Below are positions 1 to 57,518 of a stretch of DNA of 64,000 nucleotides, in pieces. The translations under genes were made by a program, and so were the position numbers. Numbering within the stretch: the first letter of the stretch is position 1; each line of letters starts with the position of its first letter. The stretch covers positions 76,074,001 through 76,138,000 of the forward strand of contig NC_092351.1 of assembly GCF_963676685.1 (NCBI RefSeq), written 5' to 3'. The notes under the pieces were generated by a model. It did not search any database. It saw nothing but the letters and a program-made list of their open reading frames with translations, and was not told the DNA's origin. Origin of the DNA: Mytilus edulis. Taxonomy: Eukaryota.

Positions 1-2
1 AA

Positions 3-1211
3 TTGACAGCGCTTTTTGAAACACACAACCAAAAGAAACATATAATTTACGATCGACTTTTTTTCATCGATGCAACAAATCAGAGAGATGAAGAAATAGG
101 TATTCTTAAAGATGCTCTAGTTGAGATTGCATTCCAGCAACCAACATGGGGACAACGAATGCCAGTCGCATGGGTACCACTTGAATATCAAATTTCTGAG
201 CTGCGTAAGAAGGACATTTACCTTATCACAAAAGATATGATTCAAGAGTTAAATAAATCAAATGTTGAATTCATGCTTAGTGAGTTCCTTCTTGACCAGT
301 TTTTAAAACTGCAGCATTCTCTTGGGAAAATTATGTATTTTGATCAACCTGGTCTACAAAAGTTCATAGTTGTACAACCTACAGCAATGGTCAATATTTT
401 GCGGTCTTTCGTCACCGACGAAATGTTTTGGCCAAGGGAACTTGGACTGAGACGAATTCTTGAAACAATGGTTAATACGGGAACGGTTAATAGGAGACAA
501 CTTTTCGAACTGTGGTCACAACCACAATTTAAGGAAATGCTGCCTTCCATTGAACAGAAAGAATACATTGTTCAGGTTCTAGTTCATCTCGATATTCTCG
601 TTGAACCAAAACATGACGACAAATATGATCCAAAGGAAGAAACATATTTGGTGCCATGCCTTGTGAAAAGTGAAATACCAATGAAGTTCCTGAAGTTTGA
701 AGAACAAAAAACAATATGCTTAGCATATCAGTTGACGGAGAGCATTATTCCTTCGGCTTTGACCTTCAAACTGATAGGGGCAGCAGTCTCCACATGGCCA
801 CTTAAACAAATAGAGGGGCGCAATTGTCTTTTTCATCAATCAGCTATTCTTTGTGTGGACGAAGGAAACGAACTTCTTATTCACATCAAAGGTCAGAGGG
901 TGACATTATTTCTTAGTAACAAATATTCAAAACATTTTATACCCCCCGATGTAGCAGCCAGCATCCAAGAATGCTTTACGTTAGCATTGGAAAGAGTTCT
1001 ACTGTTTTATCATGACTGTTTTGGAAGGTTAACAGCAAATTTAAATGTGCTTAGCCTTTTTGAGATAGAGGTTGGAGAATGGTGCAATAACGATGTTTGT
1101 TTATTGCCACTACCCCAAGCAGAAAAATCTCAGTCATGGCGCTGCAAAAATAAACAAAAGCACGAAACCAGATATTGTTTAGACTGGGTTTTTAATAGAC
1201 AAAATGATAGA
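3..1211 (+). CDS. Roco protein large exon: end of ROC GTPase, COR domain, Cys-rich segment (5'-partial)
   Basis: Long ORF with FFIDAT..DEEI..LKD.L, then WGQRMPVAWVPLE (typical COR start), FLKLQHSLGKIMYF and YLVPCLV; donor AGA|GTAAGA at 1211/1212, phase 0. Confidence 0.82.
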
Positions 1212-1688
1212 GTAAGAATAATATTCATACAAATTATCAGAGTTCAGATTTTTTAAATAACTTTTTCTTATCAATTTGTTAAAATAAACGATAAACTTAA
1301 GGTCATTTATTTCAAATAATCGTCATAGGTCTCATAAACAATGTATTTGCAGAAAGAAGAAGAAAAAGGTTTTTATATGTCCATAGTTAAAAAGTATTTT
1401 TTTAGATTCAAGTAAAGAATCGAAAACATCAAACATGTGTTGTCTGATATTATCAAATAAAATGTTGTTAAACCATTCACATTTACACCAATGATAAACA
1501 AAAAAGTGCAACACCAACAAAATTAGGATACAATGACAGGTAAACAGATCTTCTGGATGGGAAATCCTAAAAGCATAACCAAATTAAACCGAAGGCAGAC
1601 CTATCAATTATTTACATTATAAAGAGAAATGACAAGTAGATAAGTTAGAGTTTATAAAACATTGCAAAAAAAACTACAATAACCTCAA

Positions 1689-1995
1689 CATAGGTACCAG
1701 GATTTAAATTTAGTATTTACACCAGACGCGCGTTTCGTCTACAACAGACTCATCAGTGACGCCCGAATCTTAAAAAAGTTTAAAACGCCAAATAAAGTAC
1801 GAGGTTGAAGAGCATTGAGGACCAAAATTCCTAAAAGTTTTGCAAAATACATCTTAGGTAATTTAATCTTGAGGTAGAAGTTTTTTTGAACAGTTAAATT
1901 ATGAATATGATCATATCAATGATAATCCATGTCAGCACCAGCAGTAACATCGACCCAGTGGTTGCAAATGAATTCATCATAGATACCAAAATTTA
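1689..1995 (-). mobile_element. Retrozyme-like or Penelope-derived repeat monomer (~300 nt) carrying a hammerhead ribozyme
   Basis: Short direct repeat catagRtacca at both ends and an internal hammerhead on the - strand. Confidence 0.65.
1720..1761 (-). ncRNA. Minimal type I hammerhead ribozyme
   Basis: - strand CGUCA-CUGAUGA-GUCU(GUUGU)AGAC-GAAA-CGCGCG-UC^UGGUG: intact core, stems I and II, palindromic stem III, GUC cleavage triplet. Confidence 0.85.
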
Positions 1996-2328
1996 AGTAT
2001 AAACTAGTTGAAATGTCTCGTTCAGTGAACTTGAAATTGATGAGAACAATACGAGATTATGCATACTATGATTAAAGCGCATCCGTTTTTATCTGTGACA
2101 CAGATACTTTCATAACGGTTTGAAAATTCTGATTGCATTCGTGAAAATTTTCAGCAATTACTTTGTCTTCAATACGAAATATTCTAAATATTACATATTG
2201 ATATTTGCTTATTTTTGTGAATTTTCGCATTTTCATATCCATACAATTTTTCTATGATTTGTAAACTTCAGATATAGCGTATCATTAGTGATTTCAATAT
2301 ATATATATATATATATTGTTCATTACAG

Positions 2329-2359: not shown

Positions 2360-2904
2360 GTAAGTGTTTTAATTATATAAATATATATCAATTATTGTTT
2401 GGAATAAAGAAAATAACGATGTTGTAAAATCTTGGAAGATTAACAATGAGACATATTTCAAGCAGAGACTAGATGACGTAGATGTTAGCAAATTTATGTC
2501 AACTGTGCATAATTCAACAAATGACCAAATCCTTACTAAATAACAGGCTGCAAAATGCAAACATGTACAAATCAAACAAGAAACAAATTAGTTAGCGACG
2601 GACAAAAAACTTAATTCCAGGCTCTCGACTTGGGATAGACACATACTGAATGTGGGGGTGTTGATCATGTTTGCAATCGCCAAAGCCTTCCCCTATCCCG
2701 GATCAGTGATTCAACAGCCCAAAATGAGAATACACTATTAAAATCAATTTACGAAGGGCTAGAAAAGTAAAAACGATACGATGAACGACTTTAAAATCAA
2801 AACGAAGACGCAAAGAACCGATATAAGAGTACTCGCAGGCTCTGATACCTTTATCTTGCATCATATGTCTCGTTGTCTTTCGCATTGTGTTATATGTTTT
2901 GCTG

Positions 2905-3125
2905 TTACAAAATGTTAGAAATTATTATAAATTAAGGAATGTATCTCCCTCATGCAAAGCTCTGATTCCTTTCACGGATTTGGCTATACTTTTTGGACCT
3001 TTTGGATTACAGCTCTTCATCTTTTATATAAGCTTTGGATTTCTAATAGTTTGGCCACGAGCATCACTGAAGAGACATGTATTGTCGAAATACGCATCTG
3101 GTGCAGGAAACTTGGTCCGTTAATG
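2905..3125 (+). mobile_element. Second retrozyme-like repeat family, partial copy
   Basis: Contains a hammerhead; a related decayed inverted copy lies at ~4670-4920. Confidence 0.55.
3061..3104 (+). ncRNA. Minimal type I hammerhead ribozyme (sense, Roco intron 2)
   Basis: GCAUCA-CUGAAGA-GACA(UGUAU)UGUC-GAAA-UACGCA-UC^UGGUGC. Confidence 0.8.
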
Positions 3126-3264
3126 TTATTATTGATGTTTTTTTTATATGATGTAACCTTGTGGGCTTTTTTATTGGTGTACTTAAAAGCTAAACTTGTA
3201 ATAAAAAAAACTTTTCATTATTGAAATCTGCATGTCGATCTCTTTGTGTCTACCTTTTTTTCAT

Positions 3265-3472
3265 ATTGTTGGATTACAGGTTAATTAACGTTTATCCTAC
3301 ACCTTTCCTGAGAGGCTGCGGTGGCCGAGTTATTAAAGTGTACGGAATTCGAACTCACAACATCAATAATGAGAGGCTTGTGATAAGTAGTTGGACTACT
3401 TTAATAACTCGGCCTCCGAAGCCTCTCAAAAAAGATGTAGGATAAACGTTAATTAACTTGTAACCCAACAAT
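3265..3472. mobile_element. Foldback or MITE-like element with ~75-bp inverted arms
   Basis: 3265-3339 is the near reverse complement of 3397-3472. Confidence 0.75.
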
Positions 3473-4085
3473 CAATTGTGTATCAATTATGTATCTAATA
3501 TGTACTCCGCTTTAATTATTGATTCAGTAAATTAAACTTTATAAAATCATATCTATTGATAAATTGATTTTGAATATAAAGGTTGTCGTGTATAACTGCC
3601 TGTTTTTGAACTTTGCAGATCTTAGTTAGACAATGTTTGGTTCATTTACTTTTTTACTGGAATTGGTCTTGGTTTTAAGTTTTATGTTGTATATAAATCT
3701 GTTGATTTTTTAATCAGTATATTTATTGCCCTTTATTTAAATATATTGGTTTTTGTGTTGATTTGTTTCTGTTGCATAAACATATATCTGACATCATTCT
3801 AAAAATATTTTCTACGCAAAAAAAGTTGAACCGATAAGTTTGTATACAATAAAAACATCCTTTTTGCAGTTCTTAAAGCAAAACCATCGTTATCAAACAT
3901 CAAAAGATGCTCTCAACAAGATTGTTTGCACTGTATTTGTCAGAACAAAATAGTCTTGTCTCTTCCTAAATTTTGAAGGAAAAATATATGCATTTAACTA
4001 AATCTTCTCTTTATATGATAAAATCAAAACAGATTCACAGATTGGTAGTTCATATCATCAAGTCATTTGAGATTGTATTTTATAG

Positions 4086-4358
4086 ACCTTGCTAAGAAAA
4101 CTTTAGACGTTGAACCAACTGACCAACACCTAGTGCGAATAGCTAAACAACTAGGTATCAATGTTTTACCAGTTCTTCATTTATCTTGGTATGACAAGTG
4201 ACGAATGGGAAGAGATTGAACATCGTTTTATGCAGAACGATATAATGTGCAGAAAATTAATGGCATTGTACAAGTGGAGGAAGAAAACTACACCACGCAG
4301 ACTACATGATTTGTTAGATGCTCTACATAATATAAATCGACCCCAATGTCCTTGTCAG
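4086..4358 (+). CDS. Death domain 1 exon, frameshifted near 4160-4164
   Basis: ttatag|AC...CAG|gtaaaa; reads LAKKTLDVEPTDQHLVRIAKQLGIN in one frame, then FYQFFIYLGMTSDEWEEIEH...LMALYKWR...LHDLLDAL in another. Confidence 0.75.
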
Positions 4359-4669
4359 GTAAAACTAATGATAATTTGAAAATCTGTTATACTTTAATTC
4401 TTTTTCATTATTAACAGTTTGTAATGCAATAGATATATGTCGGTAAAGTATTTATATAGAAAAAGGAATAGAAAGCAACCCTTCATACTTCCTTTTTACA
4501 AATTAATTTTTTTCGCATCAGAATAAGAATTCTTTTTGATAGCTATGGAAGCTCTTCATAAGACCTTTGTCAAATGATTTTTAAATAAATAAGAGTACAC
4601 AGGGATTATGATCAAGTTTCTTTCATACATAAATGATTTAGTAAATTTGCTGTCTGAAACTAAGATATT

Positions 4670-4920
4670 CAGCTCCTAATGTGCATTTCGACAATAAATG
4701 TTTCTTCAGTCATGTTCGCGCCAAAACATTTGAGAATCTAAACTCTAGTAACAGAGTGAAGAGCTCATAAACTAAAAGGATAATTAGTCAAAGCCTGGCC
4801 AGAACTTTGCATGAGGGAGATGTGTTCCTTAATTCAAGATAATTTCCTAAATTTTGTGACAGTTACTTTTAGTGTTATAATATCATGTCAGTACCAAAAT
4901 TAATATGGCTACTGGACTGG
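4670..4920 (-). repeat. Decayed retrozyme-like copy with mutated hammerhead
   Basis: - strand CUGAAGA-aaca(uuuau)uguc-GAAA-ugcaca-UU, similar to 3061-3104. Confidence 0.5.
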
Positions 4921-5040
4921 TCTAACAGGCCTTTAGCAAACGTATAAACCAAATGGCAGTCATAACATTAACAGTACCAATTTTCTTTTTAAACCCAACA
5001 TTGCTTAATGCAGGTGTAAGGCTGTTTGGGAAACGTTTTT

Positions 5041-5180
5041 TTACCCTAACTATTCTTAACCCTAAACCTTACCCTAAACCATAACCAAACCTAACACTAG
5101 CCCTAACCCTAAAACCGAACCCTAACCTAAAACATCCCCTAACACCTAACCATAACCATAAATGAACCTTAACTCTAAAG
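5041..5180. repeat. Degenerate telomere-like (CCCTAA/CCTAA)n tract
   Basis: Repeated taaccc, cctaac and ccataa units. Confidence 0.7.
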
Positions 5181-6258
5181 TATAGGAACCTTTAAAGTAA
5201 AAGAAGGCCCTATTTATTATCTAAATTATGTAATGCCCATGAAAACTGCTTTCTATTAAAATGAAGCGCTGACCTTGTTTTTGACAGTTATTGTTCCAGT
5301 TCAAAAGATAACAGTTCTTTCGAAAACTTGTAGTCCTACATTATTTTCACTCCAGGTTGCAATTCTGTAAAAGAAAAATGTAATTTCCCATAGGAACTCC
5401 CTTTGCGGCTAAAAATGTGTCGCTTTTACTATGAAGTTTTGTGAAAAATAGTATCCAAGAACGTAAACTTGTTATGCACTACTATTTATTCAAAAGACAA
5501 AATATAGGGCTGTAAGGCATATTTTGAACATGTATATGCCCTGAACTTCTAAGAGTTTAAACTTATACATGTGTTATACTAAAATTCTATACAACTCCTA
5601 TTTCCACTTTGGACCTCCAAAGAATTAAAATGTAGGCGCTACCATGTTTTTATACTGGTAACATTTCCAGGTTATGCCTTTATAAGATTAAACACATAGA
5701 TTACAACTGGGAACAGTACTTTAACAGATACGATATCTATTAGTATTTTATATCTCCCCAAAAGAGGCGTGGCTTGTGAAAAGCTAAATTTACAAAGTGC
5801 AACCTCCAAGTTCATCCGTCTTTGCTCTGATTCCAAAATGGCACGCTTATAGCTGAATATAAGAAATGCCAGTGTTTAAGGCTGGCCTGGTTTGACCCGT
5901 TTATGGGTGTAATACCTAACCTCCGATAATGTGGGCGTGAATGCACATTCGTCACTGCTGTCTGGCGTACTAAATTGTAATCCTGGTACCTTGGATAACT
6001 ATTTTAGACCAATATGCCAGATAAGTCATTAATTAATTATAATAATCTTGATTTTAGTGTTTTGAGATTATTAACGTATATATTGGGCTGATGTTTATTT
6101 CAAATAAACCATATCTAATAAAACATAATTTTTATATATTTCAAACGAATTGAACTTATTTATAAAAAAAATTATTCCTCGACTCGCTTGTATACCTATA
6201 TCAACCTAACAAAATATTGATTAGGTGTGACCTCAATATAGTATTTGCAATATTTCAG

Positions 6259-6286
6259 ATTGTCAGAGGGGACAGCAATGTGTGTG
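6259..6286 (+). CDS. Roco gene small linker exon (IVRGDSNVC)
   Basis: atttcag|ATT...TGTG|gtgagt; 28 nt, phase 0 to 1. Confidence 0.7.
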
Positions 6287-6405
6287 GTGAGTAAACCTTA
6301 AATACTATTAAAAACAAAGTATAAGTAGACAGGTACATACGTTTTACCATATATGTACATTTCAGCAGGAGAATAACTTAAACATACTAATAGGTATACT
6401 TTATA

Positions 6406-6558
6406 GATAATGATTAAGGTTTTTCTTGTCGAGGAACACCCCGAGGGGTGTCAGGATTGATCAGATGAAAATCCGACCGTAGGGAGGTCTTTCTGTCTGC
6501 AATATTGACACCTCGAGGTGTGTTCTACGACAAGAAAAACCTTAAAATATGCATTATC
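6406..6558. repeat. Long imperfect hairpin, part of an interspersed element
   Basis: ttaaggtttttcttgtcg...gtgtca pairs with tgacac...cgacaagaaaaaccttaa around a ccgtagg apex. Confidence 0.7.
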
Positions 6559-7527
6559 TGACTTATATACCGTCCAAATTTAATGAAAAATAATTTTTTA
6601 TAAAGATTTGTAAAATTTAATATCATATTTTACCGACCACACTAAAGTGGGATATTCCTTTCTAATGCGTTCAGGTTTTAATACGCTCTACAGCTCATTT
6701 AGAATGTGAAATAAAACTCACTAATTAATCAAGATATATAAACCTTAAAAATTATTATCCATACGCAATAAATAAAAATATTACTGTAACTGCATGAAGA
6801 AAGACACAAATTAATTGTTACCATCCTACGGTGTATGACAAATACAAGACAAATTGTAAGTAATATATTGTACCAACTTAGTTTATGGAAAAGGGGGAGG
6901 GAGTTTTGTTTTTTTTCTATTTGTAATGACATTTCTATCGTAGAATGGCTGTCGGAATATTGGTTATTTTTTTCAACAATTTTAATTGAATCGAATGAAA
7001 TATTCAGAAAGATTGTCTTTTGAAAATCAAATTTGTTAACAGATAATCAGGATATAACTATATACCCTCCACACCCGACCCTTTTGTGAGTAACGTGAAT
7101 GTTAGTCAATAAAATATAAGAATATCTTATTAGTTGATTATCTGATAGAGTAAAAGGTATACATAAATTTTAAAAAGTAAAGAACTGACACGAAGACGAA
7201 TATATATACATGTAGCTAGGTCACAGTAGGATTTCTATTCAGTGTGTATCGTCCTGAACATGCATGCAATATTTGTCTCTGGAAGTTAAGCAAATAATCA
7301 AATATCAATCAATCTATTCATTGTGAAATAAATAAATTTGATGTATTTACTGTCTTCTGATTGGTTAAAATTATTAGTTTTATTTTCAATGTTGTCAATT
7401 TTTATGGCGACACGCCCACTCTGACGTTGTGTATTCATACGCCAACATGTGTGTACGTTGTTATTGTTAATATAAATAAATTATATAATAAGCTCTTCGA
7501 GCTTTATTTGTGATAGAAATTTATTTA

Positions 7528-7686
7528 TAATGAATGGCAATAATTTATTTTGAATTTAATGAACCATAAAATTAATTTTTGACTCTTCACATTTTACATA
7601 ATCCGCTTCGCGGATTATTCAATGTGAAGAATCAAAAATTAATTTTATGGTTCAATAAATTCAAAATAAACAATAGCCATTCATTA
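7528..7686. repeat. Long near-perfect hairpin (~78-bp arms)
   Basis: taatgaatggc...ataatccgc TTC gcggattat...gccattcatta. Confidence 0.8.
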
Positions 7687-38964: not shown

Positions 38965-39340
38965 CTACAAAATAAAAAATGACTTTTATTCAAGTTTCAC
39001 CGATGAGCCTTTTGTAGACGAAAGTGTGTCTTGCACAAATACAAAATTTCAATCCTGGTATCTATGATTTGTTTATCTACTCTAGAAATTTCCTCCATTT
39101 TACTTTTCCAATTTCAATTTTTTCAAGAAAAAAGTAGCATAACTCTAGAACAGTAAAAGTGAAAACAAGAAAATTAAACATAATTGTCTTTAGTTGTCCA
39201 AAATATACATTAAAATTTCAATTAATTTCCAAAAAGCAGTTCCCTACTTTTCATCTGGCAGCCAAAAGTTTGACGAACAGATGATGTGATAAATGGACAT
39301 GAGGGTTCCTTAATACCCAGAGTCTGTAAGGTAGTGATGT

Positions 39341-56507: not shown

Positions 56508-57518
56508 CTTTTAAGTAGAGTAAATATTTATATGAAATAAGGTTTAGGTGACCAAAGTTGTACTGCTAATTATATAACTAGATGAACAAGAAGTCAGAAA
56601 AACTATATTAATACTTTTCATTGCATCATTACAAACTAGCTAGTCTTTGTAACCATTAATCACCAGCAGGAATTTACTGTTTTCATGACTTGTCAATTAA
56701 TAATTGATCACTAATGAAAATAAGCTTGCCTTAATATAAATAGCATACTCGAATCTTTAACCTTCTAACTTATTCCTAAAAGAATAAGTTTTAGACATAT
56801 CAAGCAAATATTGAACATTGTGAAGACCACAACATTATTTCTGCTAGTTTCAACAAGTGTTTAAACCTAATTTAAACAGATAAAATAAACAGAAATAAAT
56901 AAAACCACAAAACATATACAACAAAATACATTAAAGAAAAAACAAAAGCAGTTTATCATAAAACATTGACAGATTTGCAGCATATAATTAATTGAGCTTG
57001 TTTAGTTTATTCACAACAAACAATTTCAGTATTAACCAGTACCACAAGTTTAATAAATTCCATATAGAGGTGTTCCTATTCACGTCAGGCTGAGACACAG
57101 AAGAAGAATTAATGACTTAATCCTCTGGAATATTCCATTGTTTTTATAATTTTATGAGTAAAGGAAAAAGTTGTTATATTATTTGTAAATGGCCTTCTCA
57201 CTTTCTCCCCTTCATCCGATCAATGCATCAATAAAGAGAAAAAACAACTTATTCTTAATACAATGTTTTAGATTGTTTTATTGCCATTGAAGAAAAAACA
57301 AACTTCTTGTTAAATTATAGCAGTATGTTAAAGTAAATCCTATACACTTAACATATCCTACAAAGACACTATCTATATCAAACTTTTCAAAAATACCACT
57401 CATTTAGTACGCCAGACAAATATTTCATCAACTTTACTCATCAGTGGTGCTTGAATAAGTTGGACTACCTTAACCTATAACCCTATCCAATTTGCATATA
57501 CTAATAGTATTTGGTGGG

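What the first reader, a model, noticed from the sequence alone, without database searches (positions are those of the whole stretch)
1689..1995. Intact minimal hammerhead ribozyme in a ~300-nt retrozyme-like monomer
Seen: - strand 1761-1720 has the full core CUGAUGA...GAAA, a 4-bp stem II, a 5-bp stem I, palindromic stem III (ACGCGCGU) and a GUC cut site at 1725. The unit begins and ends with the same short sequence, as expected for an integrated permuted monomer. Established: minimal type I hammerheads with palindromic stem III typify Penelope-like elements and metazoan non-LTR retrozymes, which cleave as dimers and can form circRNAs. Here it is antisense in Roco intron 1.
Basis: partly seen in the sequence, partly recalled or inferred. 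Interest (0 to 1): 0.7.

Follow-up and report, generated by a model that had tools for sequence, protein, structure and literature searches.

The report
Dead mussel retrozyme missing Naiad hairpin
This is a real hammerhead (self-cutting RNA) motif inside one damaged, likely inactive copy of a very abundant small mobile element of a kind already described in mussels; healthy copies carry an RNA hairpin shared with Naiad jumping genes, which likely marks the enzyme that copies them, and this copy has lost half of it.

Summary
The hammerhead is real (- strand 1762-1719, cut after C1725; Rfam RF00163, 30.5 bits, below the cut-off of 34). It is canonical in build (helices of 6, 4 and 2 bp), not the 'minimal' Penelope type. 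It belongs to a family with 3,666 exact core copies and a 361-370-nt monomer, matching the published mussel retrozyme. This copy (1678-~2004) is not a 300-nt monomer: it has private deletions of 52, ~25 and 5 nt, is 87% identical to its family, has one ribozyme (two are needed to release a circle) and showed no reads of its own in two RNA runs. Family level: 67 of 76 copies end 43-52 nt past the cut, 5' ends scatter with no stop at the cut, no target duplications. Just past that fixed end lies a hairpin also found, with three compensatory pair changes and at the same offset from the 3' end, at the start of Naiad retroelements (19 of 22 copies), so Naiad is the likely helper. The 52-nt deletion removes the hairpin's 3' arm. 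This scan noted the Naiad link before on other DNA of this genome; I took the lead from there and confirmed it.

The parts
1678..2004 (-). Whole retrozyme copy, about 1.1 monomer, internally deleted. The 5' edge is uncertain: 2001-2004, or 1988 if the AT-rich 13-nt match is chance.
   Evidence: Pairwise alignment to four family copies; blastn; 245 of 281 aligned letters match the family majority
1719..1762 (-). Type I hammerhead of canonical build; predicted cut between C1725 and U1724. Two changes from the family majority: loop 2 U to G at 1745, and helix I G-C to G-U at 1721.
   Evidence: this double variant occurs 3 times in G000
1726..1733 (-). Palindromic helix III (2 bp plus tetraloop); could also pair between two molecules
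   Evidence: Sequence; computed duplex -14.7 versus hairpin +1.7 kcal/mol
1678..1718 (-). 3' tail ending at the family's fixed 3' end, about 47 nt past the cut site
1967..2001 (-). Upstream repeat of the tail (terminal redundancy), 74% alike to 1678-1712, with a 5-nt deletion at 1988/1989
1948..1959 (-). Surviving 5' arm of the hairpin shared with Naiad elements
1935..1939 (-). Junction of a private 52-nt deletion (short microhomology) that removes the hairpin's 3' arm
   Evidence: the junction 18-mer occurs once in G000; contigs of run X4 cross it without differences
1879..1892 (-). Second deletion of about 24-26 nt relative to the family
1..1211 (+). Host coding exon with a COR domain (Roco-type gene), open at the window's start
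1212..2328 (+). Host intron (GT..AG) that holds the copy antisense; predicted from sequence, no spliced reads seen

Best explanation
This is a single, decayed and likely inactive copy of an abundant ~365-nt hammerhead retrozyme family, inserted antisense in an intron of a COR-domain gene, and it was likely written into the genome by a borrowed Naiad (Penelope-like) reverse transcriptase copying a circular or uncut RNA from one fixed start point. Shown here: the motif, the copy number, the monomer period, the private deletions, the fixed 3' and scattered 5' ends, the lack of target duplications, family RNA with head-to-tail joints, and a hairpin shared with one Naiad family at the same distance from the 3' end. 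From print, not tested here: tandem copies are transcribed, cut by two hammerheads and ligated into circles. Inferred: the Naiad protein binds the hairpin, starts DNA synthesis 5-6 nt upstream of it, crosses the sealed cut site after ~47 nt and falls off at random; here it ran a little over one lap. The copy then lost the hairpin's 3' arm and has only one ribozyme, so it would neither release a circle nor be recognised again; at most it would cut an antisense read-through RNA once. Odds: dead copy of the known class about 0.9; Naiad as helper through this hairpin about 0.6.
For: 3,666 exact cores of this subfamily and 16,073 with a free 9-nt helix II/loop stretch; reversed controls 0. Period 361-370 nt in 35 of 38 spacings; print gives 350-390 bp and two similar ribozyme families. 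3' ends at +43..+52 in 67 of 76 anchored copies (80 examined), 74 mapped 5' ends scattered; shared words of 7 nt or more at both flanks in 7 of 59 against 4.05 expected. No stop at the upstream cut: 5 of 56 at risk, the same rate per base as elsewhere. Between families A/B and C, 4 of 12 hammerhead pairs change on both sides and 72 of 72 cells pair. Family reads in 4 of 4 RNA runs (3,129-7,550 laid), with head-to-tail joints and no pile-up of ends at the cut. Naiad link: 19 of 22 copies with an intact start context score 42-51 against the retrozyme stretch, versus at most 22 in ORF windows and 30.5 in 2,000 shuffles. The hairpin descriptor fits 49 of 60 family A loci, 17 of 29 family C loci and 20 of 30 Naiad loci (one a chance fit), 1 of 20 loci of a second Naiad family, and 0 places in the window. 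6 of 7 free Naiad 3' ends stop 5-6 nt before the hairpin. This copy: 87% identity against a median of 92%; folding penalty 12.7 against 7.7-10.3 kcal/mol in 15 family copies; no depth on its flanks or the host exons, and reads over the ribozyme carry family letters at 1745 (49 of 58 and 48 of 49).
Against: No cleavage, circle or priming assay was run. Head-to-tail RNA joints also arise from tandem-array transcripts. Only 6% and 18% of two RNA runs were read, and the host gene was silent in both. Within family A just 1 double change was seen in 43 copies, and only 10 of 43 keep the core and all 12 pairs; the between-family covariation is one lineage split, and the count of changed pairs does not beat the shuffles (153 of 500). 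The copy keeps a full catalytic core, which fits activity too. The hairpin was found clearly in one Naiad family only; in a second family 1 of 20 copies gave a weak match inside the shuffle range. A shared hairpin may reflect descent or a promoter rather than enzyme binding. The copy samples come from the first places listed on contig C1, were picked on exact words and include a few duplicated loci. Identity with the published circRNA clones could not be checked.
Confidence: 0.75

Rival explanations
1. The copy is a dead retrozyme as above, but the helper is a hammerhead-bearing Penelope, Neptune or Poseidon element from whose terminal repeat the retrozyme derives; the Naiad hairpin is a relic or has another job, such as promoter or translation signal.
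For: In Xenopus 24 of 57 retrozyme families match known elements, 21 of these 22 elements being Penelope-like, at their terminal repeats (10.64898/2026.07.22.740005). C-terminal GIY-YIG elements with hammerhead-like 3' motifs exist in G000. In Naiad the hairpin sits just before the first ATG.
Against: In the 50 GIY-YIG loci inspected (30, part of the output cut; 20) the visible 3' regions did not resemble the retrozyme's end; one loose motif hit lay 824 nt downstream of a stop codon. The hairpin has the same offset from the free 3' end in both element types.
Confidence: 0.17
2. This copy is still an active ribozyme that cuts antisense transcripts of the Roco intron, alone or paired with another copy, and may have been kept by the host.
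For: Full core and all 12 pairs are kept, which only 10 of 43 sampled copies manage. The insertion is present in both DNA runs laid, from two studies. Helix III is palindromic.
Against: No reads of this copy. Both changes in the motif are of the neutral kind, one a CpG decay that weakens helix I, and predicted folding is the worst of 16 copies tested. Two or fewer changes in 44 nt at 13% divergence has a chance of about 0.07 (my arithmetic) before allowing for inherited subfamily differences.
Confidence: 0.06
3. The unit is a distinct ~290-300-nt monomer of a short subfamily that forms its own circles.
For: Terminal repeats are spaced 289 nt apart.
Against: The deletion junction occurs once in 1.37 Gb; the best other copies align only with gaps there; there is only one ribozyme.
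Confidence: 0.02

Closest known systems
Mytilus galloprovincialis non-LTR retrozyme (Cervera and de la Pena 2020, PMC7229834; parts 1-4 of 6 read, supplement not readable)
   Same: Type I hammerhead in 350-390-bp low-GC repeats; thousands of copies; two similar ribozyme families; RNA expressed; no LTR.
   Different: This copy is solo, deleted and has one ribozyme. G000 holds at least 16,073 cores against about 5,000 reported. The parts read describe no fixed 3' end, no hairpin and no named helper. Sequence identity with the deposited clones was not testable.
Rfam RF00163 Hammerhead_1 (type I)
   Same: All 45 model positions matched; core, three helices and GUC triplet present.
   Different: 30.5 bits, below the gathering score of 34, as are typical family copies.
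Minimal hammerheads of Penelope-like elements (Cervera and de la Pena 2014, PMC4209133; parts 1-2 of 4 read)
   Same: Type I topology, palindromic helix III region, possible dimer.
   Different: Minimal motifs have a short helix I, a longer helix II, an extra base between positions 9 and 10.1 and little or no helix III; this one has the 6/4/2-bp canonical build and no extra base.
Naiad retroelements (Craig et al. 2021, PMC8557442; passages read)
   Same: Fixed 3' end, 5' truncation, partial tandems; the family found here shares a hairpin with the retrozyme just past the 3' end.
   Different: Naiads are 3.4-4.4 kb, encode GIY-YIG plus reverse transcriptase and lack canonical hammerheads; the words hairpin and stem-loop do not occur in the paper's main text.
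Xenopus non-LTR retrozymes as non-autonomous Penelope-like elements (Li et al., 10.64898/2026.07.22.740005; parts 1-3 of 5 read)
   Same: Solo monomers are common, often intronic, and regarded as unable to move; Penelope-type helpers are proposed.
   Different: The link there is sequence likeness to terminal repeats of known elements in frogs; no mollusc was sampled; here the link is a structured signal shared with a hammerhead-free Naiad.

Membership tests
Type I hammerhead ribozyme | Conserved core CUGANGA / GAAA / NUH with three helices, helix I open | tested here: met
Type I hammerhead ribozyme | Rfam RF00163 gathering score (34 bits) | tested here: not met
   30.5 bits; family copies 29.7-32.5
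Type I hammerhead ribozyme | Covariation of the helices among relatives | tested here: inconclusive
   4 of 12 pairs change on both sides between families, one lineage split; 1 double change in 43 copies within family A
Type I hammerhead ribozyme | Self-cleavage of the RNA | not testable with these tools
   No pile-up of read ends at the cut in fragmented libraries; needs an in vitro assay
Minimal (Penelope-type) hammerhead | Short helix I, enlarged helix II, extra base between 9 and 10.1, reduced helix III | tested here: not met
   6/4/2 bp and no extra base against the definition
Metazoan non-LTR retrozyme (family level) | Short low-GC non-coding repeats of 150-450 nt, one type I hammerhead per unit, tandem and dispersed | tested here: met
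Metazoan non-LTR retrozyme (family level) | Expressed as RNA | tested here: met
   4 of 4 runs from 2 studies
Metazoan non-LTR retrozyme (family level) | Accumulates as covalent circles | tested here: inconclusive
   Head-to-tail joints fit circles or tandem transcripts
Active retrozyme locus | Two or more intact hammerheads in tandem | tested here: not met
   One core in this copy
Mytilus galloprovincialis retrozyme as published | Sequence identity with the published clones | not testable with these tools
   Supplement not readable; size and two-family pattern agree
Naiad (for the proposed helper, loci L214, L251, L278-L307) | N-terminal GIY-YIG before the reverse transcriptase, CxC and DKA motifs, no canonical hammerhead | tested here: met
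   GIY-YIG at residues 70-160 of a 944-aa stretch; CxC, GxKF, DKA, YIDD in that order and no core in 1.2 kb of 3' region; features from PMC8557442 passages

The most novel reading that the evidence does not exclude
Mussel retrozymes parasitise hammerhead-free Naiad elements: a bulged RNA hairpin that Naiad uses to fix where copying starts has been built into the retrozyme circle, so the Naiad enzyme starts 5-6 nt upstream of it and rolls round the ligated circle. This would name the helper and the cis signal for an animal retrozyme, and reveal a start signal of Naiad reverse transcriptase that lies outside the finished insertion.
Probability: 0.6. Interest if true: 0.65.

Novelty: new member of a known kind. 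Interest (0 to 1): 0.42.

Why it matters
The locus itself matters little: it is one of thousands of copies and is broken. The family evidence matters more. A 2020 review says metazoan retrozymes show no conserved motif that points to their autonomous partner (PMC7761336, passage). A hairpin with compensatory changes, shared with Naiad and placed at a fixed distance from where both elements end, makes that open question testable with one protein and one short RNA. It would also bear on how Penelope-type enzymes, relatives of telomerase, choose their start point. In five searches of the held library I found no paper that states the link; only two distinct works hold both 'Naiad' and 'retrozyme', and their supplements were not seen.

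Tried and rejected
Short ~289-nt subfamily: rejected, junction unique. Target-site duplication: a 6-nt word occurs at both flanks of this copy, but shared words of 6 nt or more occur in about 23% of unrelated flank pairs and the family shows no excess. Linear cut RNA as template: rejected, no pile-up of 5' ends at the cut. Empty-site allele: none among the joints shown for X4 and X13 (13 rows not shown). Expression of this copy or splicing of the host gene: no reads in X21 or X24. Shared 3'-terminal word among families A, B and C as the helper signal: looked for downstream of C-terminal GIY-YIG elements and not found at their ends. Hairpin in the second Naiad family: not supported. Free-energy folding does not predict the hammerhead for this copy or helix III for any copy, so only relative penalties were used. 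One search had one N too many and counted a longer-loop variant (136); one search is the count used. Search of earlier findings by sequence gave an unrelated hit. Dropped rows: 4 of 80 loci for 3' ends and 6 of 80 for 5' ends, 1 of 74, 17 of 60, 8 of 30 Naiad loci without the start context.

Full report
Observation. The - strand of window 1762-1719 holds a complete type I hammerhead: helix I of 6 bp (three G-U), the core CUGAUGA, helix II of 4 bp with a 5-nt loop, GAA, helix III of 2 bp closed by a GCGC loop, and GUC with C17 at 1725. Rfam RF00163 aligns over all 45 positions at 30.5 bits, E 2.1e-05, under its gathering score of 34; family copies score 29.7-32.5. By the definitions in PMC4209133 (parts 1-2 of 4 read) helices of 6, 4 and 1-2 bp with a palindromic loop are the canonical metazoan build. 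The minimal Penelope type has a short helix I, a long helix II and an extra base before position 10.1. The label 'minimal' is therefore wrong.

Host context. The copy lies antisense in a GT..AG intron, 1212-2328, predicted from sequence. The exon before it matches COR-A (E 1.8e-08, 34.8 bits against a cut-off of 35.3) and later exons match Death domains. That exon begins mid-protein, so this is unlikely to be the gene's first intron (inference). G000 is 1.37 Gb with 14 large contigs. That it is a Mytilus-like mussel is my inference from the repeat and from a recalled chromosome number.

The family. The 32-nt core with one free letter occurs 3,666 times; with the 9 letters of helix II and its loop left free, 16,073 times; reversed patterns give 0. 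Adjacent cores lie 361-370 nt apart in 35 of 38 spacings, 28 of them distinct sequences. PMC7229834 (parts 1-4 of 6 read; supplement not readable) describes about 5,000 type I motifs in two similar families in 350-390-bp repeats of Mytilus galloprovincialis, cleavage of a cloned repeat at about 0.1 per min, and abundant circles. Size and the two-family pattern agree; sequence identity could not be checked. A third family (C, 350-nt period) differs at 4 of 12 hammerhead pairs on both sides while all 72 cells still pair. That is one lineage split, and the pair count alone does not beat shuffles (153 of 500). In 43 of 60 copies picked on a word 300 nt away, non-CpG hammerhead sites diverge less than the body (0.041 against 0.085; sites not independent), but only 10 of 43 keep the core and all pairs and one double change was seen. 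A typical monomer collects 3,129-7,550 reads in 4 of 4 RNA runs from 2 studies, with head-to-tail joints, more first mates on the - strand in three runs (ribozyme-strand RNA if the libraries are of the usual stranded kind), and no pile-up of ends at the cut. Many of these reads belong to the sister family B.

This copy. It aligns from about 2004 to 1678, a little over one monomer, with deletions of 5, 52 and about 25 nt. The 52-nt junction occurs once in G000, and contigs of an independent DNA run cross the deleted sites without differences, so the deletions are real and private. Identity to the family majority is 245 of 281 (87%) against a median of 92%. The ribozyme has two changes, one in loop 2 and one CpG decay that turns a G-C of helix I into G-U. 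The computed cost of adopting the active fold is 12.7 kcal/mol against 7.7-10.3 in 15 family copies; only the comparison is meaningful. It has one ribozyme, whereas release of a monomer needs two. In 6% and 18% of two RNA runs there was no depth on the flanks or host exons, and reads over the ribozyme carried the family letter at 1745 in 49 of 58 and 48 of 49 cases.

How copies are made. Among the first 80 separate places of 100 listed on contig C1, 67 of 76 anchored 3' ends fall 43-52 nt past the cut (54 at 45-48), while 74 mapped 5' ends scatter; 16 of 71 span two or more cut sites; flank duplications are at chance level, 7 of 59 against 4.05. This copy ends at the same point. Among 73 of 74 copies longer than one lap, 5 of 56 at risk stop within 12 nt downstream to 6 nt upstream of the previous cut, the same rate per base as further up. 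So the template was continuous across the cut site: a ligated circle or an uncut multimer. A fixed 3' end with random 5' truncation is the pattern of target-primed reverse transcription (established knowledge).

The helper. I first looked for the retrozyme's 3' end behind C-terminal GIY-YIG elements and did not find it. Earlier notes of this scan on other pieces of this genome pointed to a hairpin shared with Naiad elements, so I tested that. A 1,053-aa element with N-terminal GIY-YIG, CxC, GxKF, DKA and YIDD motifs and no canonical hammerhead core in its 3' region fits Naiad (PMC8557442 passages). Just before its first ATG lies a stretch that aligns with retrozyme positions +45 to +102: 19 of 22 copies with an intact start context score 42-51, against at most 22 for ORF windows and 30.5 for 2,000 shuffles; 8 of 30 loci lacked the context. 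Both fold into a 7-bp outer stem, a bulged C, a 4-bp stem and a 4-nt bulge. The outer stem differs at three pairs on both sides and one pair on one side, and stays fully paired. The descriptor fits 49 of 60 family A loci, 17 of 29 family C loci (some overlapping), 20 of 30 Naiad loci (one by chance), 1 of 20 loci of a second Naiad family and no place in the 64-kb window. Of 12 distinct Naiad 3' ends in hand, 5 run on into the hairpin as tandem copies and 6 of the 7 free ends stop 5-6 nt before it. The retrozyme hairpin starts at +54, so ends at +47 or +48 are the same 5-6 nt before it. The simplest reading is that the Naiad protein binds this hairpin and starts copying just upstream. That step is inferred; descent or a promoter role are not excluded, and the second Naiad family gave only one weak match. 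In this copy the 5' arm survives at 1959-1948 and the 52-nt deletion removes the 3' arm.

Print. A review states that metazoan retrozymes show no motif pointing to their partner (PMC7761336, passages). A 2026 preprint links frog retrozymes to terminal repeats of Penelope-like elements, treats solo monomers as offspring that cannot move, and finds 42-44% of copies in introns (parts 1-3 of 5 read). PMC10886601 (passages) adds nothing. Searches found no statement of the Naiad link; supplements of these papers were not seen and may bear on this.

Verdict. A real hammerhead in a decayed, likely inactive copy of a known kind of element. The locus is ordinary. The family-level link to Naiad holds up on sequence and structure, is untested at the bench, and was noted before by this scan on other DNA. 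Interest 0.42.

Noticed in passing
window 2898-3131 (+), hammerhead 3061-3104: A 5'-truncated copy of a third retrozyme family (C, 350-nt period, about 97% identical to relatives) in the next intron, this time on the host gene's sense strand; a G to A change at 3092 breaks the helix III palindrome.
   Followed up: partly
window 4679-4986 (-), 38997-39080 (+), about 57400-57450 (-): Three more decayed hammerhead-repeat remnants: one like family C (67%), one family A 3' fragment, one like family B.
   Followed up: partly
window 4162: The Death-domain exon is frameshifted in the window; contigs of both DNA runs X4 and X13 have two more letters here, so the break may be an allele or an assembly error.
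   Followed up: partly
L112:109-491 (-), about 9.5 kb upstream of the window: A better-kept family A copy of just over one monomer, 91% identical to a typical unit.
   Followed up: no
L112:6181-7139 (-) and L258-L277: A very abundant second Naiad-like family (21,393 first-look candidates) with DKA motif; 17 of 20 copies fetched have an in-frame TGA at one fixed place after DKA, as in the selenocysteine Naiads reported for clams and spiders. The copies were mostly chosen for a 480-aa frame, so the count is biased; no SECIS search was run.
   Followed up: partly
L177:2937-3001 (+): SECIS-like Rfam match (30.9 bits, below gathering, E 0.0043).
   Followed up: no
L205-L254: Several C-terminal GIY-YIG Penelope-like families carry hammerhead-like motifs 90-840 nt after the stop codon, some starting UUGA instead of CUGA, and often end in TA repeats.
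   Followed up: no
L115-L174: Slight excess of 5' ends at +31 to +47, that is at about one full lap (11 of 73; 0.0089 per base against 0.003-0.006 elsewhere); may be an alignment edge effect.
   Followed up: no
window 1678-1700 and families A, B, C: All three retrozyme families share a short word 19-22 nt before their fixed 3' end and end in TATT.
   Followed up: partly
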